A stretch of DNA of 64,000 bases from positions 128,001-192,000 of the forward strand of contig JBEKVV010000004.1 in NCBI GenBank assembly GCA_049513715.1, read 5' to 3'. The notes beneath the pieces were generated by a model that saw only the letters and a list, made by a program, of their open reading frames with translations, did no database searches and was not told where the DNA came from. This DNA comes from Candidatus Bathyarchaeia archaeon. Lineage in GTDB: Archaea; Thermoproteota; Bathyarchaeia; 40CM-2-53-6. Shown in pieces: positions 10,879 to 22,693 of the stretch. Position 1 is the stretch's first letter. Each line of letters starts with the position of its first letter. The translations under genes and the position numbers were made by a program.

Positions 10879-12075
10879 TTAGCCTATGTTCGTTGGGGAG
10901 TTTTGTTCAGTTTTCCGGAATATTGCGTAGAAGAGGGTTATGGACATGACGTACAAGATTGTGCAGAGGTAGAATGGCAAGCTGAGGTTGCCCGCGTTCA
11001 GTAGCGAGCCACCGACGACAGTGCTTGCTGCGTTCGGTAATCGCCAGATCACCACGTTAAGCGAGGACGCAGTTGCCCTTTCGTCCTCTGCAATCATGTT
11101 CATCAGAAATGTGTCGCCGAGGGGGCTGGACATGTTCATGAGAACTGCACGAATGACGTAGAGGGGTCCGGCGATCATTGGGCTTGGGCTGAATGGGATG
11201 GAGAGTAGGAAAATGGTTGAGAGCCCCTGAGTCACAACGATTCCTCTAATCAAGCCTATTCGTTTAGCGATGCTCGGTGCCGCTAGGGCGGTTAGTCCCA
11301 TTATGATGCTCGATGCTGCGACGAGAGGCCCGCTGAAGACGTCTGTCACATTGAAGCGAAGATAGAACCATGTCGGTATTAGTGGAATGATGAGTCCTGC
11401 TCCCAAGCCGATCATCAGGTTCGCGGTTGAGAATTTAGCTATGATTCCAAGCGATTTGCGAGGCAGTATACCCTTACGTGACGTCTTCGGCTTGATGTTG
11501 ACTGCCCAACGTGAAACCGTAAGCGGGGTTGCGAGGCATATGAGTCCAAGTGCAACGAAAGTCAGTCGGTGCGCTGTCAACAGATCCATTGGCAGCAGCG
11601 GGAATAAGCCGGGCACGAATGTGCCAACACCGGAAGCAATCGTGAAGGTCATGAAGGACAGGCTGAATGTGGCAGCCCTAACATCGGCGGTCGTTGTATC
11701 CGCAAGGTATGCGTTCCATGTGGACAGGTACATGGCCTCGCCTATGCCGCCTGCTATGGCTGAAAGTTCTAGCAGGAGGATGTCTGCTGTGATGCCCGGA
11801 ACTATGATGATGAAGCTCGTGAGAAGTCCTCCGACTAGCATTATGCGTTTGCGGCCGTAACGGTCAGAAAGCACAGCGAACGGGATGCTGAAGACCACGG
11901 TAGTTAACCCGAAAATCGTCAGGAGGGCGCCCAGATAAGTGACAGATATGCCTTCTAAGGGGAGAAAGACTGCTATGGCTACTTCGTAGAAGCCCAACCC
12001 TAGCGCCAAGGGGCTTGCACCCAAAACGACGCGGACAGTGTTTTTCGGGACACTTCCGAATGGGTGCATCTGCAT
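10879..12075 (-). CDS. MFS transporter
   Basis: About 12 TM segments; motif A LSDRYGRKR. Confidence 0.9.
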   Translation of the reverse strand: MQMHPFGSVPKNTVRVVLGASPLALGLGFYEVAIAVFLPLEGISVTYLGALLTIFGLTTVVFSIPFAVLSDRYGRKRIMLVGGLLTSFIIIVPGITADILLLELSAIAGGIGEAMYLSTWNAYLADTTTADVRAATFSLSFMTFTIASGVGTFVPGLFPLLPMDLLTAHRLTFVALGLICLATPLTVSRWAVNIKPKTSRKGILPRKSLGIIAKFSTANLMIGLGAGLIIPLIPTWFYLRFNVTDVFSGPLVAASSIIMGLTALAAPSIAKRIGLIRGIVVTQGLSTIFLLSIPFSPSPMIAGPLYVIRAVLMNMSSPLGDTFLMNMIAEDERATASSLNVVIWRLPNAASTVVGGSLLNAGNLSLPFYLCTILYVMSITLFYAIFRKTEQNSPTNIG

Positions 12076-12126
12076 TGGCCACTTACCAGGGGTTCTGATT
12101 AGATGAGCATGCTGATCGAAAAAAAG

Positions 12127-12543
12127 CTACGCCATGTTCTCGCGAAGGATCCCTGCGACTTCGGTCGGAAGCAGAGTAGCCTTCCAGTTCAGGTCGACTG
12201 CGATGCATTTCAAGTAGCCTTCAGCGGCCAATTCGTTCGTTTCCTTTTTGTTTAGTTGAAACTCGTATGTGACGGTCTTATCGGTGATTTCCTTGACCTT
12301 CATTACGACTTCAATGAGGTCATCGTACTTGCAGGCTACCATGTATACACAGTGTGCTTCAACCCTTGGTAGCATTATTCCGTATTTCTCGCGAATTTTG
12401 GCGTGAGTTGCACCCAGTGAGCGGTAGAACTCTTGCTCGCAGGCCTCGAAGTACCTGAAGAAGTTGGTATAGTGCATCACTCCCGCTACATCTGTGTCAA
12501 CCCAACGAACACGAAACGCGTATTTGAAACTCATCGCGGTCAA
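12127..12543 (-). CDS. Acyl-CoA thioesterase (YbgC/4HBT family)
   Basis: VRWVDTDVAGVMHYTNFFRYFE. Confidence 0.88.
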   Translation of the reverse strand: MTAMSFKYAFRVRWVDTDVAGVMHYTNFFRYFEACEQEFYRSLGATHAKIREKYGIMLPRVEAHCVYMVACKYDDLIEVVMKVKEITDKTVTYEFQLNKKETNELAAEGYLKCIAVDLNWKATLLPTEVAGILRENMA

Positions 12544-12624
12544 CTATCCCATTGTCCGGCTGAAAGTACTCCATAGATTTAACGAAGCCGTATTGCAAAT
12601 GCGAAAAGGCTGCGGGATTCTCTG

Positions 12625-12636
12625 AAAGCTTATAGG
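12625..12636 (+). promoter_or_regulatory. BRE/TATA promoter of tRNA-Tyr
   Basis: GAAAGCTTATAG about 30 nt upstream of the tRNA 5' end. Confidence 0.55.
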
Positions 12637-12662
12637 GCACGCGCCAGAGGCTTTGGTTTTGT

Positions 12663-12837
12663 CCCGCGGTAGCTCAGCCTGGTAGAGCTTCCGAGTCGCT
12701 CTAACTAGGAGTGACGGAGACGCTGTAGGTGTGCGCCCAAGGCGCGGCCATGTCAGCCTACTAGGCTAACAACCGAAACCGGACTGTCGCTGGTTCAAAG
12801 CAGGTGTTACCCTGTGAAAATCCGGCCCGCGGGACCA
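12663..12837 (+). tRNA. tRNA-Tyr(GTA) with three introns (30/31, 37/38, 59/60), CCA encoded
   Basis: C1:G72, A73; introns 12694-12721, 12729-12777, 12800-12820; spliced stem TCCGG/CCGGA, loop CTGTAGA. Confidence 0.92.
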
Positions 12838-13668
12838 TTATTTTGATGGTCGTGGGATCGGGGCTCCATTCTCCTTCAAAAGCAGAAGCCGTTCTTGAAG
12901 AGTTGTATGTGGTGGACAGGTACCAAGGGCTTTCCATACTAGGAATTTCGTATTCTTCGACAGATTGGCGAATCCCACTCTCATCATCCAGTAATGTAGC
13001 TGCTTACGACCCTTAATCCATATCAAGTGAAGTGGTACTCGACGCATCTGCTTGCTTTGGTATACACTACTATAGAAACGAAAACCCAGGTTCTTGAGCA
13101 AGCGAGTGGTGCCACTTGCGAGCGAGGGACTGCATGTTGAGAAGTTCAAAATGGGATCAGAGTATTCGGATCTTGCGTTCTTGCCAAATGAGAGTGAGCC
13201 GTCCGTGTCAAAGAGACCTCTCAAACAAGCTGAGTAGAACGATTTGTCATTGGAGTCCAGGAGAACGTCGGGTATACGGGCTCTGTACTTGGGCCCAACT
13301 GGCAATCCAAGAATCTTGGATTTGAAATAGAATACGGCCATGGAGCCGTACATCAGGTTCAGTTCTGACTTTTCAGGGCGCTCGTAAGTGCTACCTCGAA
13401 GATTGTAGAGCCGGGAAACAAGCGTCGAAACATGCGAAAGGAGGTAATCGCGGTCTTCTCTGTTATGCCCTGTATAGATCCATCGATACTCTGTTCCTCC
13501 ACGTTTCGGCCTGCAGAACTTCAGTTGGCCGTCACCCAAATGAATCCCGATTTCCTCCGCAAGCTCTATCGACATTTCTTTGGGGATCGTAACCTGTCTT
13601 CGGTCATCATTCCAACTGCGTGGCAGTGTCGAAGGAATCGGAGGCCTCATCCTTGCATATCGCTCCAA
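12838..13668 (-). CDS. Two-motif LAGLIDADG homing endonuclease (start uncertain)
   Basis: LAEEIGIHLGDG and CLRGLFDTDGS motifs; stop codon directly abuts the tRNA-Tyr CCA; no intein splicing motifs or host protein. Confidence 0.88.
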   Translation of the reverse strand: MERYARMRPPIPSTLPRSWNDDRRQVTIPKEMSIELAEEIGIHLGDGQLKFCRPKRGGTEYRWIYTGHNREDRDYLLSHVSTLVSRLYNLRGSTYERPEKSELNLMYGSMAVFYFKSKILGLPVGPKYRARIPDVLLDSNDKSFYSACLRGLFDTDGSLSFGKNARSEYSDPILNFSTCSPSLASGTTRLLKNLGFRFYSSVYQSKQMRRVPLHLIWIKGRKQLHYWMMRVGFANLSKNTKFLVWKALGTCPPHTTLQERLLLLKENGAPIPRPSK

Positions 13669-13762
13669 GAGTGTGAGTAATTGCGACTACTAATGCGAGA
13701 GAGCTAGGTGAAACGAATCTGGAATCGTACTAGTCCTACCGTGCAGTATTCAATGAAGGACA

Positions 13763-13910
13763 GCTGTAGTCCTGTACCTTGATGGTATGGGGAGTTCAGC
13801 TTACTAGGCGTACAACGTCTGAAACCGGAGTGTCGCTGGAGAACCGTTCAATGGTTCGGCGAATTCAAAATGGAGTGCATAACTCTATGAAACTCCGGCC
13901 CGCGGGACCA
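13763..13910 (+). repeat. Partial second tRNA-Tyr(GTA) copy (positions 31-76) with introns at 37/38, 53/54, 59/60
   Basis: Exons identical to the upstream gene except position 44 (G vs C); introns 13770-13823, 13840-13863, 13870-13893; no acceptor 5' strand or D arm found upstream. Confidence 0.88.
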
Positions 13911-13978
13911 TAACCGAGCTGTAAACGAAACCGTGTTCAATGACTCTTTCACCCTGAGAGCGGGTTCGTTTCCTGATT

Positions 13979-14455
13979 CTACGTGGTCGGTTTGGATACC
14001 TTGTAGAGAAACAGCTTGCGCTCAAGACCACCACTGCTTCCTATTGCGACTTTTTCAGGTGTGAAGCCTGGGAGCTCATAGTCAAGAGAAACGATTCTGG
14101 CGCCCTCTTTGAGTTCCTGTTTCAGTTTGGGTGCTAGCTTCGAGTTCACGCTATCTGAGAGGTAGATGATGACGGCGTCGGCAGGGGAAACGTCGACGTC
14201 CATGAAGTCTGCTTGGATTACTTGTGCTTCGATGCCGGTGGATTTTACGCGTTCCTGAATTCGGGAAACTCGTTCGGGGTCGATCTCGATTCCAACAACC
14301 TTCGCCCCGAATTTTCGTGCAGCTTCGATTAGAATGCGTCCGTCACCGGCTCCCAAGTCGTAGATTGTCTCCCCGCGTCGAATTTGGGCGAGCGAGAGCA
14401 TCTGGTGCACTATGGATTTTGGTGTTGGAATGTATGCTACGTCTAAGTCTACCAC
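13979..14455 (-). CDS. Class I SAM-dependent methyltransferase
   Basis: YIPTP, YDLGAGDGR, VGIEIDP. Confidence 0.88.
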   Translation of the reverse strand: MVDLDVAYIPTPKSIVHQMLSLAQIRRGETIYDLGAGDGRILIEAARKFGAKVVGIEIDPERVSRIQERVKSTGIEAQVIQADFMDVDVSPADAVIIYLSDSVNSKLAPKLKQELKEGARIVSLDYELPGFTPEKVAIGSSGGLERKLFLYKVSKPTT

Positions 14456-14520
14456 TCTATTCGTCCTCGTCGCAAATTCATTTCAGGTCTTCGAGGAGTT
14501 GGCGACCCAGAGAAAGAAAG

Positions 14521-16461
14521 CTAACGCTTCCTCCTGACCGATCGCCTTCGCTTGCGCTTCGAAGGTTTCCTCCGCAGAAACAGCACGAAGGAGGCGGCAG
14601 ACGCCGCGACGACAGTGATGAGCAATGTCACTTCATACAGCCAAATCGGAGCTAACACATTCAAATCCAGAAAACCTGTGGAGCCACCAAAATACGGGTT
14701 GCCATTGACTGCAACTGTCAGGTTGTGTTCTCCGAGCTGATACCATCCGAAGGCGAGTGTGATGTTCATTGTTCCATCGACAAGCCTTTGACTTGTAATG
14801 AGTTTGTTGTCGAGCCAAATGTCGGCTTGGAGGTTCGGGAGTAAGTTGCCGAATTCATCTGTGGCTTTGACGGTAATTGTGCTAGGCTGAGCTGCCTGCA
14901 TGTTTGGTGAACTGGAGAACTGTATTCTGGTGGCAAGCTTACCCAAGTTCAGGGTTGTCAGCTGGTCGCTGCCCGCAAGGTAGAGATTGCCAAACTTGCC
15001 ACCTGTAAACAAGAAGCGAATGTAGTATTCACCGGGCTTGAGTGCGAAGTGTTCTTCAAAACGTGCAATGCCTTCGTTGTCGGTTTGGTTCGTATCGATG
15101 TCATACCATTGTTCGTGGTCGTAATACTGAAGTTTCACTGGCAGTCCTGAAAGCCTGTTGCCAGATAGGTCTGTAATGGTGGCTGATATTGTTGCTTGCC
15201 GTAGGTAGGTGGCGTTTACGGAGCGAGGTGGTATGATCTGGGTGTTCTGGAGGGTGAGGCCTGATAGTTTTTGGTTGGCTACGAGCACTGTGAAAGTATC
15301 TGCAGTTCTGGATTGGATGGTAATGAATACGTGCCGGGCCGGGTCTTCGAAGGTTTCTCCGACTTGGTAGGGGGCATCGTTCAGCGTTTTGGTTGATGTG
15401 TTCGCGTCCATGACTTGAACGATTCCGCCGCCAGTGTCGCGTGATTCATCTATTCTCGTGATTAGGACGCCTGAGCTAGGAAGGCTGTCGTCAAACCCCA
15501 CCCTGTCACGGAGTTCAACCATGTAATAGTCGGTAGAGCTGTTGGTTGTTATCTTGATTGTTCGAGTTCCGGAGCTTGTTTCTAGCGGGTGGAGTGTTTC
15601 ACTTTGGATGGAGAGGTTGCCTGTGGAAAGTTGAACGCTGTCTGGCAGAAGCCATCCCAACTTGACTCTACTCCACGCCTCAAGCTCTGCGGGCGAGGTG
15701 CCCGGAGGATTGCCCAGCCACAACCCAGTTGCCATAAGGGACCACCTCCCCACAAACGGATCTGGTGTGTTAGGGGCGGCGTTCGCGTCGTATAGATCTA
15801 GAAGGCCTAGCAAGTGCCCGTACTCATGCGTATAGACACCTAATGGAGAATGCCCGTGTGTTTCCATCTCAGGGGCTATTGCGGCGGCGTTGACGACGGC
15901 CCCGTTGTTTGCTTGAATCTGCAGGTCATACCAGTAAGCCTCGGACCAAATGTCGTCGGATGTGGATGCCGCATCCTCTTGTCCTGCTCCTGCGTGAACC
16001 ACAACGATCTTGGAGTACGCATTGAAGTCAACATCCGCTTCGGCTGCTGTGATTGCGTCTCTGATCAATTGGACAGGGTTTGCATCGCTTCCCGGCTGCG
16101 ATGGGTTGAGGTCAGCGCCGTAGAAGGACATAGGGTTAGGAAGCTGATACCAGCCTACGGTTTTCCCGATAACTTGGATTTCGCCGTATGAAACGTCGGA
16201 GTAGTATTTCGCCATCTGGTTGAAAATCATATTGTCAATTGCAGTTTTGTTGGCCGTGTGTTTGACATCGGAGAATTCAACTAGAATCGCAAGCGTGTTT
16301 TGTGGACCTGAGGCAGGGGAGACTGGAGGGTAGTACTGAGGTCCAACGCCCTTCACCCCCAGAAGGTTGGGGCGCATTGCGGCTGCGTAGTCAGGACGCA
16401 TGGACGAGGCTAATACGCAGAAGAGAAAGACCACGGCGATGAGTACTTTTGAGGTTTTCAT
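14521..16461 (-). CDS. M6-family (immune inhibitor A-like) secreted metalloprotease with C-terminal membrane anchor
   Basis: Signal peptide, VVHAG, HEYGHLLGLLDLYD, WSLMATG, Ig-like region, TM helix and basic tail. Confidence 0.9.
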   Translation of the reverse strand: MKTSKVLIAVVFLFCVLASSMRPDYAAAMRPNLLGVKGVGPQYYPPVSPASGPQNTLAILVEFSDVKHTANKTAIDNMIFNQMAKYYSDVSYGEIQVIGKTVGWYQLPNPMSFYGADLNPSQPGSDANPVQLIRDAITAAEADVDFNAYSKIVVVHAGAGQEDAASTSDDIWSEAYWYDLQIQANNGAVVNAAAIAPEMETHGHSPLGVYTHEYGHLLGLLDLYDANAAPNTPDPFVGRWSLMATGLWLGNPPGTSPAELEAWSRVKLGWLLPDSVQLSTGNLSIQSETLHPLETSSGTRTIKITTNSSTDYYMVELRDRVGFDDSLPSSGVLITRIDESRDTGGGIVQVMDANTSTKTLNDAPYQVGETFEDPARHVFITIQSRTADTFTVLVANQKLSGLTLQNTQIIPPRSVNATYLRQATISATITDLSGNRLSGLPVKLQYYDHEQWYDIDTNQTDNEGIARFEEHFALKPGEYYIRFLFTGGKFGNLYLAGSDQLTTLNLGKLATRIQFSSSPNMQAAQPSTITVKATDEFGNLLPNLQADIWLDNKLITSQRLVDGTMNITLAFGWYQLGEHNLTVAVNGNPYFGGSTGFLDLNVLAPIWLYEVTLLITVVAASAASFVLFLRRKPSKRKRRRSVRRKR

Positions 16462-16510
16462 TCCGACAGGACCCGGTTGCTAATGGGAGAAGGTCAAACA
16501 GGAAACAACC

Positions 16511-16524
16511 CGAACACTTTAAAC
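16511..16524 (+). promoter_or_regulatory. BRE/TATA promoter of tRNA-Asp
   Basis: CGAACACTTTAAAC about 30 nt upstream of the tRNA. Confidence 0.55.
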
Positions 16525-16550
16525 TCTCTTGAGGATTTGTATGAAACCGG

Positions 16551-16656
16551 GCCCTGGTCGTTCAGTGGTCTAGGATGACGGCCTGTCACGTCGTCGACGC
16601 GGGTTCGAATCCCGCCCAAAGGAGCGGAAAGAATCTTCTCCTGGCGAGGGGCGCCA
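16551..16656 (+). tRNA. tRNA-Asp(GTC) with one intron in the acceptor stem (68/69)
   Basis: Removing 16619-16648 restores GCCCTGG/CCAGGGC, G73, CCA; strict BHB with CGCC/GGCG central helix and AGGAG/CTCCT outer helix. Confidence 0.9.
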
Positions 16657-16672
16657 ACCCGCGTACCCACGA

Positions 16673-16813
16673 CTACTCATCAAGGCCGGACAGCTTTTTC
16701 ATGTCCATGTTGCTGAGTTTCTTGCTTTTGCAGCGGGGGCAGGAGGGTTCTTTGGCGTTTGTGAGAAATTCGTAGCTGCAATCATTGCACGCGTAGAAGG
16801 CCGCTTTGTCCAA
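16673..16813 (-). CDS. Small zinc-ribbon protein (46 aa, below the ORF-track cutoff)
   Basis: TTG start; MDKAAFYACNDCSYEFLTNAKEPSCPRCKSKKL... with CxxC-x12-CxxC. Confidence 0.65.
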   Translation of the reverse strand: MDKAAFYACNDCSYEFLTNAKEPSCPRCKSKKLSNMDMKKLSGLDE

Positions 16814-16893
16814 GATTGTACCCGTGTTTCACTGTGTTCTTACTCAGTCATTAAATATCATTTTGCTGGTTTTGCTGGCGGTTTTGATTTACC

Positions 16894-17835
16894 ATGATGC
16901 CAGTTAATGAGAAGGATGTCGTAGCGGCAATCGAGAAAGTGAGCCCTGCGGTCGTGTCCATCGCAACCCTTAGGGTCATTCAGGAGAACCTGTTTGATGC
17001 TGTTCCAGTTCGCGGCTTGGGCTCGGGTATTATTTTCGATTCTAACGGTGGGATACTTACGAACCACCATATCGTTGAGGACGCTGAGAGGGTTCAGGTG
17101 GTTACTGCGAACGGGAAGAAGTTCCAGGGAGAGGTGTTGGGCTCTGATGCGATGTCGGATGTGGCTGTGGTCAGGGTGGATGGCGAGGGATTGCCTGCCG
17201 TTAGGCTTGGGGATTCCGATAAGTTGGTTGTGGGTCAAATTGCGATCGCAATCGGTAACCCGTACGGGTTTCTTCTACCCGGGCCGACGGCGACGGTTGG
17301 TGTAATCAGTGCTCTGCAACGGCATCTCCACGTTGAGAACCACATGTACGAGGACCTGATTCAAACCGACGCTTCAATCAACCCAGGAAACAGCGGCGGC
17401 CCCTTGGTGGACAGCTCAGGCCAAGTCATTGGCGTCAACACGGCTAACATACCGTTCGCGCAGGGCATAGGGTTCGCGATACCAATCAATAATGCGCGGA
17501 AGATTGCGAAGGAAATAATCCAGCACGGACGCGTCCCGCGACCGTACCTAGGTATCTCAGGCCTGACTCTGAACCGAGACATAGCCGAATCCTACAATAT
17601 TCCACACGAGAAGGGAGTGCTGGTGGTTAGGGTGGGGAGGGGTAGCCCAGCCCATAGGGGTGGCATGTCAGCCGGAGATGTGATTCTTGAGGTCGACAAG
17701 AAACCTCTGAAGGCTTGGGAGGATTTGCAGCATGTGGTTCAGGAGAAGAAGGTGGGAGAGAGTTTGGAATTGTTCGTGGGCCGCGACCAAGAGCAAGGCA
17801 AGATGAACATAGTCCTGGAGGAAGCGGCCAGGTAA
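16894..17835 (+). CDS. htrA: HtrA/DegP-like serine protease with PDZ domain
   Basis: GSG, TNHH, DVAV, IQTDASINPGNSGGPL, PYLGI. Confidence 0.92.
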   Translation: MMPVNEKDVVAAIEKVSPAVVSIATLRVIQENLFDAVPVRGLGSGIIFDSNGGILTNHHIVEDAERVQVVTANGKKFQGEVLGSDAMSDVAVVRVDGEGLPAVRLGDSDKLVVGQIAIAIGNPYGFLLPGPTATVGVISALQRHLHVENHMYEDLIQTDASINPGNSGGPLVDSSGQVIGVNTANIPFAQGIGFAIPINNARKIAKEIIQHGRVPRPYLGISGLTLNRDIAESYNIPHEKGVLVVRVGRGSPAHRGGMSAGDVILEVDKKPLKAWEDLQHVVQEKKVGESLELFVGRDQEQGKMNIVLEEAAR

Positions 17836-20769: not shown

Positions 20770-20794
20770 GGGCCCGTAGTTTAGTCAAGGTGAG
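20770..20794 (+). repeat. tRNA 5' fragment (positions 1-24), tRNA-Lys-like, intron-less
   Basis: GGGCCCGTAGTTTAGTCAAGGTGAG vs spliced Lys GGGCCCGTAGCTCAGTCAGGTAGAG, 20/25 identical. Confidence 0.65.
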
Positions 20795-20915
20795 TCCGAC
20801 TGTTTTCGTACACTTTTAGTGGGTGAGTGGCGTGACTGAGCCTAGGCAACGCGGAAGGCTATCTCAGCGCAAAGTCTCTTTAGTAAATCCAAAAGCTAGT
20901 CGTTTCGGGTCTATT

Positions 20916-21262
20916 ATGAGCCCGCAATTCATCCGCTCCAAAAGAGCTTCCAATCTTAGCAAATCCGTGGAGCTTGAGGCGTTCCTTGGTTCCTGCAGAA
21001 ACGATTGGCTAAAAGAGAAAGCCGAAGAGGCATTCACAGAAATAAAAGCTCATTATGAAATTGGCGACAAGGTCCAGAAGGACAGATGGCCGCGCTATTA
21101 CGTCTTGACATGGGGATCAACAATCTGTATGTTCATAAGCTTGGGCGCGACTGGCGCTTAACCTACTCGCTCGTAGCAGATGAAGTAGGAATCATGGCCT
21201 TCTGCCTTGAAATCCTGACACACAAGCAATATAACAAAAGGTTTGGTTACGGGAACACCTAG
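20916..21262 (+). pseudogene. RelE-like toxin with a frameshift near 21112
   Basis: ...IGDKVQKDRWPRYYVLTW continues in the -1 frame as GINNLYVHKLGRDWRLTYSLV...LEILTHKQYNKRFGY; one G missing in a G4 run. Confidence 0.6.
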
Positions 21263-21519
21263 CGCACGCGGATGCTTTTCGCCAATGCCCGCTTTAACGT
21301 GGCGTTGTCAGCGAAGACCCAGACGATTTCACGATCATTCAAGATTATTTTGTTGCTTGCTAGCAAGTACTCTATGACACGGTTGAAAGTTTGGTATTGT
21401 ACCTTGCGCGGGAGGCTTTGCCACAGGGCCTTCTTGGTCGGATAGTTTTTCGCTTTGTGTATGGCTTCTTCCACCATCAGTATGGTTCCTAGTGTGGGTT
21501 CGTGGGCGTTTTTCACCAT
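21259..21519 (-). CDS. Small winged-helix protein, putative antitoxin/regulator
   Basis: PTLGTILMVEE..LWQSLPRKVQYQTF..VIEYLLASNKI; convergent with the toxin, 4-bp overlap. Confidence 0.65.
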   Translation of the reverse strand: MVKNAHEPTLGTILMVEEAIHKAKNYPTKKALWQSLPRKVQYQTFNRVIEYLLASNKIILNDREIVWVFADNATLKRALAKSIRVR

Positions 21520-21578
21520 CAGACATTTCCTCTCCCTTAGAGTTACTACTACAGTAGACTACTATGGTAATGTGCTAT

Positions 21579-21613
21579 TTATACATAATTGTATATTATA
21601 CAAGTATGTATAA
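21579..21613. promoter_or_regulatory. 35-bp AT-rich palindrome (operator or recombination site)
   Basis: TTATACATA-A-TTGTATA-T-TATACAA-G-TATGTATAA, one mismatched pair. Confidence 0.6.
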
Positions 21614-21700
21614 TGCTTTAATTGTCGGAAAACGCTATGCCCGCCACATCCATCAAGGGTTGTCATGAAGATTTTGCTCAAGATCCCTGATCTCATGATG

Positions 21701-21731
21701 TTGGTGGGTTCAAATCCCACCGGCCCAACCA
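21701..21731 (+). repeat. tRNA T-arm/acceptor 3' fragment, left direct repeat
   Basis: TTGGTGGGTTCAAATCCCACC-GGCCCAACCA. Confidence 0.8.
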
Positions 21732-21779
21732 TCTCGTCTGTGTAATGACCGTTCTTTCACGAGAGTATAATTGAGTCCA

Positions 21780-22043
21780 TCATTTGTAGGCCCTTCCTCT
21801 GAACTCGACAGCGAGAACGGCAATCGTTTTGGATTCCCAGTCGACCTCATACTCGATGCGGATTTCTCCTATTCGTATTCTGTAGGTGTCATGCATCCCA
21901 GCCAGTTTCCTGACATCGTATTCAGGAACTGGCGCTGGATTCTGACTCAAAGCCTCTAAAACCAGCAGGACTCCACGCGCGTAGTGGCTAGGTATACGCC
22001 TAAGCGACTTCCTAGCACGGTTTGAAATAATGATTTCGAACAG
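21780..22043 (-). CDS. relE: RelE/ParE toxin (87 aa, apparent CTG start, missed by the ORF track)
   Basis: FEIIISNRARKSLRRIP...NPAP..DVRKLAGMHDTYRIRIGEIRIEYEVDW..TIAVLAVEFRGRAYK*. Confidence 0.85.
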   Translation of the reverse strand: MFEIIISNRARKSLRRIPSHYARGVLLVLEALSQNPAPVPEYDVRKLAGMHDTYRIRIGEIRIEYEVDWESKTIAVLAVEFRGRAYK

Positions 22044-22048
22044 GAGAG

Positions 22049-22252
22049 CTACGCACCGAGTTCCTTTCGGAGCTGGCCTAAGGTGACGTAGCGGCCCTTC
22101 TCAACCTCTAGCCGACCCTGTCGGATCAGTTTTCTTTCTCTGGCAGTCACTCGCTCTTCCGGAAGTAGGGCCGCCCTTAAGCGAAGAAGCTCTATCTTCA
22201 CGTCGTCAAGCTTCGTGATTACTTTACGCAATTCAGTCTTGGTTACTGCCAT
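22049..22252 (-). CDS. Antitoxin upstream of relE
   Basis: 67 aa with C-terminal KGRYVTLGQLRKELG; canonical antitoxin-toxin order. Confidence 0.75.
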   Translation of the reverse strand: MAVTKTELRKVITKLDDVKIELLRLRAALLPEERVTARERKLIRQGRLEVEKGRYVTLGQLRKELGA

Positions 22253-22373
22253 TAGATTATCCCGCACATCTGCAGTCTAACCAACTAGTAAAAGAATCTG
22301 GCGTCTGGCAGAGCCTTATCTCCTTCCTCCTACGGGGTGGGTATTCTACTTAGAAACGTGATTAGTCCCACAA

Positions 22374-22404
22374 TTGGTGGGTTCAAATCCCACCTGCCCC
22401 AGCA
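22374..22404 (+). repeat. tRNA T-arm/acceptor 3' fragment, right direct repeat
   Basis: TTGGTGGGTTCAAATCCCACC-TGCCCCAGCA; first 21 bp identical to 21701-21721. Confidence 0.8.
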
Positions 22405-22445
22405 CTTTCCTGTTTACCCGTTGCCGTCGAGCATTGCACCTACTC

Positions 22446-22589
22446 CATTGGAGGTCGGCATGTGATGTGCTGGTCGGTGATGCTTTTACCTTTTCGGGAA
22501 ACGTAAACCCAGGGAAGCCACCCGAAAAGAAACCGCTTAACCGCGGTCTTGGGGAAGGGTCCCGGGTTCAAACCCCGGCGGGCCCGCCA
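22446..22589 (+). repeat. Partial second tRNA-Lys(TTT) copy (positions 25-76) with introns at 30/31, 37/38, 43/44
   Basis: Exons differ from the intact gene at positions 28 and 60 only; introns 22452-22481, 22489-22519, 22526-22556. Confidence 0.88.
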
Positions 22590-22693
22590 ACTCCCTGTTC
22601 CTCATGAATGTCCGCGTGAATCCGAACAGCCTTCTTGCTGGGGCCCTGCAGATGATGGTCGAGAAGAATGGAAGCTTTTGCATCTAAGCCAGA

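What the first reader, a model, noticed from the sequence alone, without database searches (positions are those of the whole stretch)
12663..13910. Minimal homing-like element: tRNA-Tyr / antisense LAGLIDADG / second tRNA-Tyr 3' part with different introns
Seen: the endonuclease stop codon abuts the CCA with 0-nt spacing. On its other side lie tRNA-Tyr positions 31-76 (45/46 exon nt identical) with an extra intron at 53/54 and a different 59/60 intron, both clean BHBs. The ORF is neither inside an intron nor an intein. Established: free-standing homing endonucleases can spread by intronless or collaborative homing, in which an intron disrupts the target and gives immunity. Inference: the nuclease cuts tRNA genes lacking a given intron, and repair co-converts nuclease plus intron-protected tRNA half.
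Basis: partly seen in the sequence, partly recalled or inferred. Interest (0 to 1): 0.88.

Follow-up and report, generated by a model that had tools for sequence, protein, structure and literature searches.

The report
Homing-endonuclease cassette inside archaeal tRNA-Tyr gene
A selfish DNA-cutting enzyme gene has inserted into the tyrosine tRNA gene of a peat archaeon, bringing its own replacement half of the tRNA and a small intron, which suggests one way that archaeal tRNA genes gain introns and leftover fragments.

Summary
Window 12663-12837 is a complete three-intron tRNA-Tyr(GTA). An intact 276-aa LAGLIDADG gene lies antisense at 12838-13668, and its stop codon touches the CCA. Window 13763-13910 repeats tRNA positions 31-76 (45 of 46 exon bases identical) with other introns.

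Comparison with 70 related tRNA-Tyr loci shows a roughly 1.07-kb insertion at tRNA position 30/31. It consists of a 28-nt BHB intron, a replacement 3' part, the nuclease gene and a spacer. The second part is the displaced original 3' part, still joined to the native downstream flank. Relatives hold uninterrupted "empty" alleles of the same intron type.

The cassette is 92-99% identical in two species whose surrounding DNA is 69-79% identical. It is present in 2 of 23 genomes of the genus, and one genome keeps only a decayed remnant. Distant homologs abut tRNA genes in 52 of 67 evaluable loci.

The best reading is a homing cassette that cuts tRNA-Tyr alleles lacking the 30/31 intron. Mobility is well supported; the cleavage site is inferred only.

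My literature searches found no description of this. The nearest published cases are collaborative homing in phages and integrase-borne tRNA introns. Earlier notes of this scan report similar tRNA-linked LAGLIDADG genes on other DNA.

The parts
12626..12637 (+). Putative TATA/BRE-like promoter element of the tRNA-Tyr gene, about 27-37 nt upstream of tRNA position 1
   Evidence: Read from the sequence. The core CTTATAGG is kept in L002, although the 40 nt upstream of the tRNA are only 72.5% identical. Promoter function is inferred.
12663..12837 (+). Complete tRNA-Tyr(GTA) gene (copy 1) with encoded CCA. Exons: 12663-12693, 12722-12728, 12778-12799, 12821-12837.
   Evidence: Spliced alignment. 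The spliced product is called tRNA-Tyr(gta), 77 nt, by ARAGORN. It holds the only 5' part of this tRNA in the 2.79-Mb genome.
12694..12721 (+). 28-nt BHB intron at tRNA position 30/31. It is proposed to be the left end of the inserted cassette and the feature that disrupts the nuclease's target.
   Evidence: Central helix 4/4 (one G-U), bulges CG|A and AC|G, inner helix 8 bp. It is absent from 'empty' alleles L092, L095 and L115/120/125/128/131. Its role in immunity is inferred.
12729..12777 (+). 49-nt intron at 37/38 of copy 1 ('37a' type)
   Evidence: It is 92-96% identical to the 37/38 introns of HEG-less alleles L116, L127 and L129. The central helix scores 3/4 in the canonical register.
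12800..12820 (+). 21-nt intron at 59/60 of copy 1 ('59a' type)
   Evidence: Canonical hBHBh': central helix 4/4, inner helix 4 bp, outer helix 5 bp (the T stem).
12838..13668 (-). Free-standing single-chain LAGLIDADG homing endonuclease gene, 276 aa from a TTG start (270 aa from the ATG at 13650). The stop TAA at 12838-12840 abuts the CCA. The T-rich run after the CCA may also serve as the tRNA terminator.
   Evidence: ORF. Pfam LAGLIDADG_3 scores 27.9 bits against a cut-off of 22.5. Both motif aspartates are invariant in 13 homologs. AlphaFold2 pLDDT is 90.8 with two alpha-beta-beta-alpha-beta-beta-alpha halves. The best Foldseek hits are the TliVMA intein endonuclease and I-DmoI. The terminator role is inferred.
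13669..13762 (.). Spacer between the nuclease start and copy 2. It presumably holds the nuclease promoter and is the right end of the cassette.
   Evidence: It is 93.6% identical to L002 and has no match in HEG-less loci. Promoter function is inferred.
13763..13910 (+). Displaced 3' part of tRNA-Tyr (positions 31-76 plus CCA, copy 2). Exons: 13763-13769, 13824-13839, 13864-13869, 13894-13910. Introns: 37/38 ('37b', 54 nt), 53/54 (24 nt), 59/60 ('59b', 24 nt). It is contiguous with the native downstream flank.
   Evidence: Its 37b intron is 87-89% identical to that of the intron-30/31-less full genes L115/120/125/128/131. The downstream methyltransferase gene follows HEG-less tRNA-Tyr at the same spacing in L127 and L133. 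No long-range BHB to exon 1 was found.

Best explanation
The locus holds a minimal homing cassette of about 1.07 kb (12694-13762) inserted at position 30/31 of the single tRNA-Tyr gene of a Bathyarchaeia genome. Read along the tRNA strand, the cassette consists of four pieces:
- a 28-nt BHB intron;
- its own replacement copy of tRNA positions 31-76, with two further introns and the CCA;
- an antisense LAGLIDADG endonuclease gene packed against that CCA;
- a spacer.

The host's exon 1 (positions 1-30) is spliced by the cell's own tRNA splicing endonuclease to the cassette-borne 3' part, so tRNA-Tyr stays functional. The host's original 3' part (copy 2) is pushed downstream and left unused.

Proposed mechanism (inferred):
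1. The nuclease makes a double-strand break in tRNA-Tyr alleles whose 30|31 junction is uninterrupted.
2. The broken ends find homology in exon 1 on the left and in copy 2 on the right. The cassette therefore carries a portable right homology arm.
3. Repair copies everything in between. The new allele is immune because the junction is split.
4. Later loss of the nuclease gene leaves behind an intron-bearing tRNA gene and sometimes a tRNA fragment.

Shown here: the anatomy, the filled-versus-empty site relation, an intact nuclease fold, recent exchange between species, sporadic presence, a decayed remnant, and the tRNA linkage of the whole protein family.

Inferred: nuclease activity, the cut site, and immunity through the intron.
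For: 1. Anatomy.

2. Filled versus empty site.
- In metagenome loci L003-L005 the nuclease is 59% identical in protein sequence. There the flanks and copy 2 are collinear at 84-88% identity with genomes L092 and L095.
- L092 and L095 carry a complete, HEG-less tRNA-Tyr with no 30/31 intron and the same intron set as copy 2.
- Homology to L092 resumes at tRNA position 25. In L003, 1108 nt lie between G30 of exon 1 and G31 of copy 2, and the 6-nt word CTTCCG is repeated at both ends.
- In the window, copy 2 starts exactly at G31.

3. Copy 1 of L004/L005 matches the stand-alone allele L086. Both intron haplotypes therefore exist as working genes.

4. Native locus. The order thioesterase, tRNA-Tyr, (wHTH ORF), methyltransferase is syntenic in the genus. 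The methyltransferase follows copy 2 at the spacing seen after HEG-less genes in L127 and L133.

5. Recent transfer. G000 and G275 are 69-79% identical over the 20 kb compared. Between them the segments score as follows:
- promoter 72.5%;
- copy 1 98.9%;
- nuclease gene 96.8%;
- spacer 93.6%;
- copy 2 91.9%.
There is no homology right of copy 2's CCA.

6. Sporadic presence.
- 1 of 22 other genomes of the genus carries the cassette.
- 0 of 30 loci in genera g2-g5 carry it.
- 0 of the 18 other loci fetched from g4 and other families of the order carry it.
- Only G000 and G275, of 59 family genomes, have the close nuclease.

7. Remnant. G260 (L117) has a full tRNA-Tyr followed after about 45 nt by a decayed piece of a copy-2-like part, with no nuclease gene.

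8. By elimination. Everything from position 31 to the native flank of an 'empty' allele is still present in copy 2, and positions 1-30 are present in copy 1. The only sequence that empty alleles have and the cassette locus lacks is the uninterrupted junction around 30|31 (reasoning).

9. The nuclease looks active. Both catalytic aspartates are invariant, and the fold is of the I-DmoI/intein type.

10. Family-wide tRNA linkage.
- 52 of 67 evaluable distant loci have a tRNA within -120 to +200 nt of the ORF stop: 39 on the same strand and 13 convergent. Only 4 have one upstream.
- Rfam confirms 14 of the 20 loci checked.
- Clades are tied to one tRNA type: 14 label changes on the tree against a mean of 27.2 (minimum 22) in 200 shuffles. 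Kinship alone contributes to this.
- Paralogs in the same archaeal family sit tail-to-tail on tRNA-Phe.

11. Assembly. The cassette is contiguous in contigs of 4 public runs. One of these runs also holds, at depth 7.9 against 263, a relative's uninterrupted allele that joins 12693 to 13763. These runs may include the source sample.
Against: - There is no biochemical or expression evidence of any kind. Cleavage, its site and immunity are all inferred.
- In the window and L002 the CTTCCG repeat is absent. The bases just before copy 2's G31 weakly resemble the 3' end of a 30/31 intron (GGA.CA against GGAGAC). Copy 2 might therefore derive from an intron-bearing allele, which would undercut the proposed target.
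- None of the 21 HEG-less genomes of the genus has exactly copy 2's intron set (37b + 53/54 + 59b). That set was seen only in the sister genus.
- Effectively only two cassette lineages were seen: the window with L002, and L003-L006/L062, which are near-identical to each other.
- The 30/31 intron is widespread in the order, including genus g4, where 0 of 10 genomes have any homolog. It does not need this nuclease to persist and may be older than it.
- Between the window and L002 the nuclease gene differs at 16 nonsynonymous and 11 synonymous codons, which points to relaxed constraint.
- Copy 2's 46 exon bases show 0 differences between the two genomes, while its introns show 12 plus indels. That could mean selection on copy 2 as a working part rather than refreshment from recipients.
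- Distant homologs show no flanking tRNA repeats, and 15 of 67 have no adjacent tRNA by ARAGORN.
Confidence: 0.62

Rival explanations
1. The element is the same mobile nuclease cassette, but the nuclease cuts somewhere other than the 30|31 junction. For example, it may cut outside the tRNA or need only a short site near the tRNA end, as its tail-to-tail paralogs may do. On this reading copy 2 arose once from a one-sided, illegitimate repair event, and the 30/31 intron plays no part in immunity.
For: The family generally abuts tRNA ends without any duplicated tRNA part. The 30/31 intron is common where no nuclease is found. In the window, the junction before copy 2 has no repeat.
Against: Copy 2 keeps positions 31-76 and the native flank intact, so a target there would be self-cut. 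Two cassette lineages have their right junction within 6 nt of the 30/31 site.
Confidence: 0.12
2. The arrangement is a decayed tandem duplication of tRNA-Tyr with a resident nuclease gene that is no longer mobile or has been domesticated. The high identity between the two species would then come from ordinary recombination of a conserved locus.
For: The ratio of nonsynonymous to synonymous codon changes is fairly high, 16 to 11. Only two lineages were seen.
Against: The identity step is sharp: 72.5% in the promoter and no homology in the right flank, against 92-99% inside. Further evidence is the presence in 2 of 23 genomes of the genus, the remnant in G260, and the collinear empty alleles.
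Confidence: 0.08
3. The arrangement is a remnant of an integrase-mediated integration of a plasmid or virus into the tRNA gene. The reconstituted tRNA and the repeated 3' part would be attL and attR, the intron would have come in with attP as in the Caldiarchaeum tRNA-Thr model, and the nuclease gene would be a passenger.
For: The geometry is the same as in PMC3293823 (abstract and Discussion read): a reconstituted tRNA, a direct repeat of a tRNA part, and an extra intron on the element side.
Against: The insert holds one ORF, and that ORF is LAGLIDADG. The Pfam Phage_integrase search (E <= 0.01) finds no match on contig C4. The neighbouring variable ORF is a wHTH protein. The same one-gene insert is kept in two lineages whose nucleases are only 59% identical.
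Confidence: 0.05
4. Copy 2 is a working alternative 3' half. One 5' exon would be joined, by long-range BHB splicing or in trans, to either 3' part, giving two tRNA-Tyr isodecoders (C44 and G44).
For: Copy 2's exons are unchanged between the window and L002, while its intron loops vary and its helices are kept. The acceptor strand of copy 2 co-varies with the 5' part in L003-L005.
Against: In the canonical register the long-range motif has only 2/4 central pairs (both G-U) and a 0-bp inner helix. Duplex energy is -20.8 against a shuffle mean of -24.7. In L003-L005 copy 2 carries positions 25-30 again, which cannot be spliced onto exon 1 at 30/31. There is no second 5' half in the genome. In L002 copy 1 already has G44. 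The co-variation is equally expected if copy 2 is the recipient's own former gene.
Confidence: 0.05

Closest known systems
Collaborative (trans) homing: a free-standing endonuclease beside an intron-containing gene, such as F-CphI with the psbA intron of cyanophage S-PM2 or T4 mobE with I-TevIII. Sources: passages of PMC3984707 read; PMC6083498 and PMC2790892 seen only in search listings.
   Same: The nuclease gene lies outside the intron, next to the gene it targets. The proposed target is the intron insertion site of intron-less alleles. The intron gives immunity and is co-converted with the nuclease gene.
   Different: Here the host is a cellular archaeon, not a phage. The intron is a protein-spliced BHB intron in a tRNA, not a self-splicing group I intron. 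The nuclease is LAGLIDADG. The cassette carries a replacement gene half and leaves the displaced half as a built-in homology arm. Cleavage is untested.
Phage T4 SegB, a free-standing GIY-YIG endonuclease in the tRNA gene cluster. Its role in inheritance of the T4 tRNA region is recalled; PMC13096335 was seen as a listing abstract only.
   Same: A free-standing homing endonuclease whose mobility is tied to tRNA genes.
   Different: It belongs to a different nuclease family, sits in a phage genome, has no intron and does not duplicate a tRNA half.
Integrase-mediated integration into archaeal tRNA genes with an intron-bearing attP: the Caldiarchaeum subterraneum tRNA-Thr(GGU) model (Sugahara et al. 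2012, PMC3293823; abstract and Discussion read).
   Same: A reconstituted tRNA gene, a direct repeat of part of the tRNA at the far end of the insert, an extra intron arriving with the element, and heterogeneity among close relatives.
   Different: That insert encodes a DNA recombinase and duplicates a 5' fragment. Here the only gene is a LAGLIDADG nuclease, the 3' part is duplicated, and no tyrosine integrase is on the contig.
LAGLIDADG endonucleases encoded inside archaeal rRNA BHB introns (I-DmoI, I-Tsp061I). PDB titles were seen; their intron location is recalled.
   Same: The same protein fold and family, and the same partnership of a LAGLIDADG nuclease with a BHB intron in a stable-RNA gene.
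   Different: Those ORFs lie within the intron and are spliced out with it. Here the ORF is antisense, outside the small intron, and no BHB bounds the whole insert.

Membership tests
LAGLIDADG homing endonuclease, single-chain two-motif type | Two LAGLIDADG motifs, each ending in a conserved acidic residue | tested here: met
   The motifs are ...IGIHLGDG... and ...LRGLFDTDG.... The aspartates are invariant in the 13-sequence alignment A1.
LAGLIDADG homing endonuclease, single-chain two-motif type | Profile match above the curated threshold | tested here: met
   Pfam LAGLIDADG_3 scores 27.9 bits against a cut-off of 22.5, E 2.9e-6. The A1 profile hits the TliVMA intein endonuclease and I-DmoI chains at 1e-8 to 1e-6.
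LAGLIDADG homing endonuclease, single-chain two-motif type | Pseudo-dimeric alpha-beta-beta-alpha-beta-beta-alpha fold | tested here: met
   AlphaFold2 pLDDT 90.8 and pTM 0.89, with the element order as expected. Foldseek probability is 1.00 to I-DmoI, with TM normalised to the target of 0.72-0.78.
LAGLIDADG homing endonuclease, single-chain two-motif type | Site-specific double-strand cleavage of a long target | not testable with these tools
   This needs protein expression and a cleavage assay.
Free-standing endonuclease with collaborative or intronless homing | Nuclease gene outside any intron or intein, beside the target gene | tested here: met
   The ORF is antisense between copy 1 and copy 2. 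No BHB bounds it.
Free-standing endonuclease with collaborative or intronless homing | Unidirectional gene conversion that carries the nuclease gene and flanking markers into nuclease-less alleles | tested here: inconclusive
   The data are compatible. There is a tract of 92-99% identity in a 69-79% background, filled and empty sites and a remnant. The process itself was not observed.
Free-standing endonuclease with collaborative or intronless homing | [quoted passage not shown] | not testable with these tools
   This is only inferred, by elimination, from what empty alleles have and the cassette locus lacks.
Free-standing endonuclease with collaborative or intronless homing | Partner intron is a self-splicing group I intron (as in the described cases) | tested here: not met
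   The intron is 28 nt long with a BHB motif. Rfam found no group I intron in 11000-17000.
Integrase-type integrated element in a tRNA gene | Direct repeat of part of the tRNA at both ends of the insert | tested here: met
   Positions 31-76 are present twice.
Integrase-type integrated element in a tRNA gene | Integrase or recombinase gene in the insert | tested here: not met
   The only ORF with a family match is LAGLIDADG. The Phage_integrase search (E <= 0.01) gave no match on contig C4. Other recombinase families were not searched.
HEG-bearing archaeal BHB intron (I-DmoI type) | The whole insert is bounded by a BHB motif so that it is spliced out | tested here: not met
   For 12694-13762 the central helix is 2/4 and the inner helix 0 bp.
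Split tRNA gene (Nanoarchaeum or Caldivirga type) | Separate half genes with complementary leader and trailer | tested here: not met
   There is one 5' part in the genome, and it belongs to the complete gene. No excess complementarity was found.

The most novel reading that the evidence does not exclude
tRNA-locked LAGLIDADG cassettes may be a general, so far undescribed vehicle by which archaeal tRNA genes acquire BHB introns at non-canonical positions and shed orphan tRNA fragments. On this reading each homing event installs an intron as the immunity scar, and loss of the nuclease leaves multi-intron genes, mosaic intron haplotypes shared across genera, and possibly the raw material for split tRNAs.
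Probability: 0.3. Interest if true: 0.9.

Novelty: new variant of a known kind. Interest (0 to 1): 0.8.

Why it matters
How archaeal tRNA introns arrive is still unsettled. [quoted passage not shown]

This locus offers a concrete, testable route. A homing nuclease may spread by breaking intron-less tRNA alleles, leaving an intron plus a displaced gene fragment behind.

The locus comes with natural controls. Filled, empty, immune-looking and remnant alleles occur in one genus, and some of them in the same peat samples.

It would also extend collaborative homing from phage group I introns to cellular archaea and protein-spliced introns. Finally, it points to a family of nucleases with long, tRNA-gene-specific targets.

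Tried and rejected
- ARAGORN in default mode and Rfam (E <= 1) do not detect this tRNA-Tyr. ARAGORN with introns over the whole genome did not list it either. Identification rests on spliced alignment and on the spliced product.
- Minimum-free-energy folds of single arms did not reproduce the BHB motifs. I used an explicit register check instead. The outer-helix counts of that check are meaningless where another intron interrupts the stem.
- A search for tRNA-derived direct repeats around the nuclease gene in distant homologs found none beyond L002-L005.
- Long-range splicing of exon 1 to copy 2 has no support.
- An integrase nearby was not found with Pfam Phage_integrase.
- The variable roughly 400-aa neighbour is a wHTH protein, not a mobile-element gene.
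- Expression: no RNA holder is listed among the 24 runs, so nothing can be said about it.
- The comparison of the 59a intron with relatives was spoiled by inconsistent boundary placement and is not used.
- My idea that 'Type A' alleles are deletion products of copy 1 by copy 2 recombination is not supported, because G260 has a Type A gene and still keeps a remnant.
The same check was redone from window coordinates.
- Viral contigs, phage and plasmid collections were not searched.
- The supplements of the papers were not opened.
Full report
OBSERVATION

The window is G000:C4:128001-192000 of a 2.79-Mb, 51% G+C archaeal assembly. The closest public record is titled Candidatus Bathyarchaeota.

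Reading 12300-14300 and a spliced alignment give a complete tRNA-Tyr(GTA) at 12663-12837. It has introns at 30/31 (28 nt), 37/38 (49 nt) and 59/60 (21 nt). The spliced 77-nt product, CCA included, is called tRNA-Tyr(gta) with a regular cloverleaf.

A 276-aa ORF lies on the minus strand at 12838-13668. Its stop triplet occupies the three bases after the CCA.

At 13763-13910 tRNA positions 31-76 occur again. There is one exon difference in 46 (C44 against G44), and the introns lie at 37/38 (54 nt, unrelated in sequence to the first), 53/54 and 59/60.

In the canonical register the 30/31, 53/54 and both 59/60 introns have a 4/4 central helix, two 3-nt bulges and inner helices of 4-8 bp. The two 37/38 introns score 3/4 and 2/4.

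Standard tools miss the gene. The 5' part occurs once in the genome and the 3' end twice.

THE PROTEIN

The ORF matches Pfam LAGLIDADG_3 above threshold. Both motifs keep their acidic residues in 13 aligned homologs. The AlphaFold2 model (pLDDT 90.8) has the two alpha-beta-beta-alpha-beta-beta-alpha halves. Its best structural matches are an archaeal intein endonuclease and I-DmoI. It is the only close copy in the genome.

WHAT THE RELATIVES SHOW

I located the tRNA-Tyr 5' part in 401 genomes of the class. I then examined 70 loci: 30 returned by that call and 40 fetched.

Only L124 (genome G275, the same record as L002) has the nuclease and the second 3' part. That is 1 of 22 other genomes of the genus. 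The count is 0 of 30 loci in genera g2-g5 and 0 of the 18 other loci fetched. A protein search of all 59 family genomes finds the close nuclease only in G000 and G275. Eleven others have 28-36% identical paralogs at other loci.

The HEG-less genes of the genus fall into four intron types:
- Type A: 30/31 + 37a + 53/54 + 59b, 11 genomes.
- Type B: 30/31 + 37a + 59a, 2 genomes. This is the same as copy 1.
- Type C: 30/31 + 37a, 3 genomes.
- Type D: no 30/31 intron, 37b + 59a, 5 genomes.

Copy 2 combines 37b, 53/54 and 59b. In the sister genus that exact set occurs as a complete, HEG-less gene without a 30/31 intron (L092, L095). The set of copy 1 also occurs there as a complete gene (L086).

FILLED AND EMPTY SITES

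Metagenome contigs L003-L005 carry a 59% identical nuclease in the same architecture. Their upstream flank, copy 2 and downstream flank are collinear at 84-88% identity with L092 and L095. Homology to L092 resumes at tRNA position 25. In L003, 1108 nt lie between G30 of exon 1 and G31 of copy 2, and the word CTTCCG (positions 25-30) stands at both ends.

In the window the second part starts exactly at G31. The upstream thioesterase gene is syntenic across the genus. The downstream methyltransferase follows HEG-less tRNA-Tyr at the same spacing in L127 and L133. In most genomes of the genus, including G275, a wHTH ORF lies in between.

The cassette therefore sits inside the native gene, and copy 2 is the part that remains attached to the native flank.

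MOBILITY

G000 and G275 are 69-79% identical across the 20 kb compared. Within the locus the identities are:
- 40 nt upstream of the tRNA: 72.5%;
- copy 1: 98.9%;
- nuclease gene: 96.8% (11 synonymous and 16 nonsynonymous codon differences);
- spacer: 93.6%;
- copy 2: 91.9%, plus indels.
Similarity ends at copy 2's CCA.

G260 (L117) has a full gene followed by a decayed copy-2-like piece without the nuclease gene.

Contigs of four public peat and wetland runs carry the cassette contiguously. One run also holds a low-depth contig that joins 12693 to 13763 and continues with the 59a intron of L125. This is a relative's uninterrupted allele, not an excision product. These runs may include the source sample.

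THE FAMILY IS TIED TO tRNA GENES

There are 75 distant homolog loci (L007-L082 without L062). Of these, 67 could be evaluated, and 52 have an ARAGORN tRNA within -120 to +200 nt of the ORF stop. Of those 52, 39 are on the same strand and 13 are convergent. In many of these the in-frame stop lies 10-30 nt inside the tRNA. Only 4 have a tRNA just upstream. In 15 none was seen.

Rfam confirmed the adjacent tRNA in 14 of 20 loci checked.

On a quick tree, clades correspond to single tRNA types. There are 14 label changes against a mean of 27.2 in shuffles, which is partly an effect of kinship.

Paralogs in the same archaeal family sit tail-to-tail on a multi-intron tRNA-Phe, with the stop touching the discriminator base.

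No flanking tRNA repeats were found outside the Tyr clade.

HOW IT MOST LIKELY WORKS

The insert splits the gene at 30/31. The tRNA is rescued because the insert begins with a BHB intron and a full replacement of positions 31-76.

Everything from position 31 to the native flank of an empty allele is still present in copy 2, and positions 1-30 are in copy 1. The only sequence that empty alleles possess and the cassette locus lacks is therefore the uninterrupted junction around 30|31. That makes the junction the candidate target.

A break there would leave two ends that match exon 1 and copy 2. Repair would copy the cassette whatever the surrounding genome. Alleles that keep the 30/31 intron after losing the nuclease gene would be immune.

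All of this mechanism is inference. Nothing here shows cleavage.

POINTS AGAINST

- The weak resemblance of the bases before copy 2 to an intron end.
- The absence of an exact copy-2 haplotype among HEG-less genomes of the genus.
- The wide spread of the 30/31 intron where no nuclease is found.
- The relaxed codon pattern of the nuclease gene.
- The unchanged exons of copy 2.
Each is detailed in the Against line.

RIVALS

- Long-range or trans splicing of copy 2 finds no support.
- An integrase-type origin, as in the published Caldiarchaeum tRNA-Thr case (PMC3293823; abstract and Discussion read), shares the geometry. However, no recombinase is present.
- A non-mobile duplication does not explain the identity step or the sporadic presence.

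WHAT IS KNOWN

I ran six full-text searches. None returned a paper describing LAGLIDADG genes attached to archaeal tRNA genes.
- Nawrocki et al. 2018 (PMC6125680; passages read) report archaeal group I introns, all 39 in rRNA genes.
- The 2026 Asgard preprint (abstract and passages) leaves the route of intron arrival open.
- Collaborative homing is described for phage group I introns (PMC3984707; passages).

Recalled without a call: the definition of the BHB register, the rRNA-intron location of I-DmoI, and the homing-cycle idea.

Earlier notes of this scan report tRNA-linked LAGLIDADG genes on other DNA, one of them with a duplicated tRNA half and a new small intron. These are unchecked AI notes. 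I tested the tRNA linkage myself.

VERDICT

It is a new variant of known kinds: free-standing or collaborative homing combined with tRNA-half replacement. It bears directly on how archaeal tRNA introns and fragments arise.

Noticed in passing
window 20771-22590: A tRNA 5' piece (acceptor strand plus D-arm start) and a 3' piece (T arm, acceptor strand, CCA) with perfectly complementary acceptor strands lie about 1.7 kb apart. ARAGORN with introns calls this tRNA-Glu(ttc) with a 1734-nt intron. The only ORF of 100 aa or more between them is 112 aa.
   Followed up: partly
G000 C1:422326-424277, C2:276145-278935, C2:397267-397809, C8:55914-56389: ARAGORN with introns calls further tRNAs with introns of 399-2698 nt in this genome. 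I did not check whether they are real, and none coincides with a LAGLIDADG_3 match.
   Followed up: no
L083-L152 (tRNA-Tyr loci of relatives): Two unrelated 37/38 intron types (37a, 37b), and the presence or absence of the 30/31, 53/54 and 59/60 introns, are shared across genera and occur in mosaic combinations. This means old intron haplotypes or frequent exchange between tRNA-Tyr alleles.
   Followed up: partly
L149-L152: In another family of the order, tRNA-Tyr has a 22-nt intron in the D arm (placed by the aligner at 20/21 or 22/23) instead of the 30/31 intron, together with a 37b-type intron.
   Followed up: no
L022:820-1086: A group I intron (Rfam 75.2 bits) starts at the stop of a distant nuclease homolog. 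ARAGORN calls a tRNA-Asn with a 197-nt intron there. This may be a group I intron in an archaeal tRNA gene.
   Followed up: no
L038:1272-2126 and L070:195-1077: ARAGORN calls tRNA-Ser and tRNA-Ala genes whose roughly 780-800-nt intron near position 37/38 contains the nuclease homolog. If this is correct, some family members are intron-encoded. Not verified.
   Followed up: no
L154-L158, L161, L164: Paralogous LAGLIDADG genes (28-36% identical) in the same archaeal family lie tail-to-tail on a multi-intron tRNA with a GAA anticodon loop. The stop codon touches the discriminator base, and in several loci a tRNA-Cys lies on the other side.
   Followed up: partly
L124:1657-2850 and the same place in L117, L120, L121, L125, L134: A 390-420-aa winged-helix (AsnC-type HTH) ORF lies between tRNA-Tyr and the methyltransferase in most genomes of the genus. 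It is missing in the window, L127 and L133.
   Followed up: partly
G000 C2:395288-395785: Two LAGLIDADG_3 matches lie inside a 1062-aa open frame, which looks like an intein endonuclease in a host protein.
   Followed up: no
window 12838-12846: The T-rich run directly after the CCA contains the nuclease's stop codon on the other strand. It could also act as the tRNA's terminator, so the two convergent genes may share their end signals.
   Followed up: no
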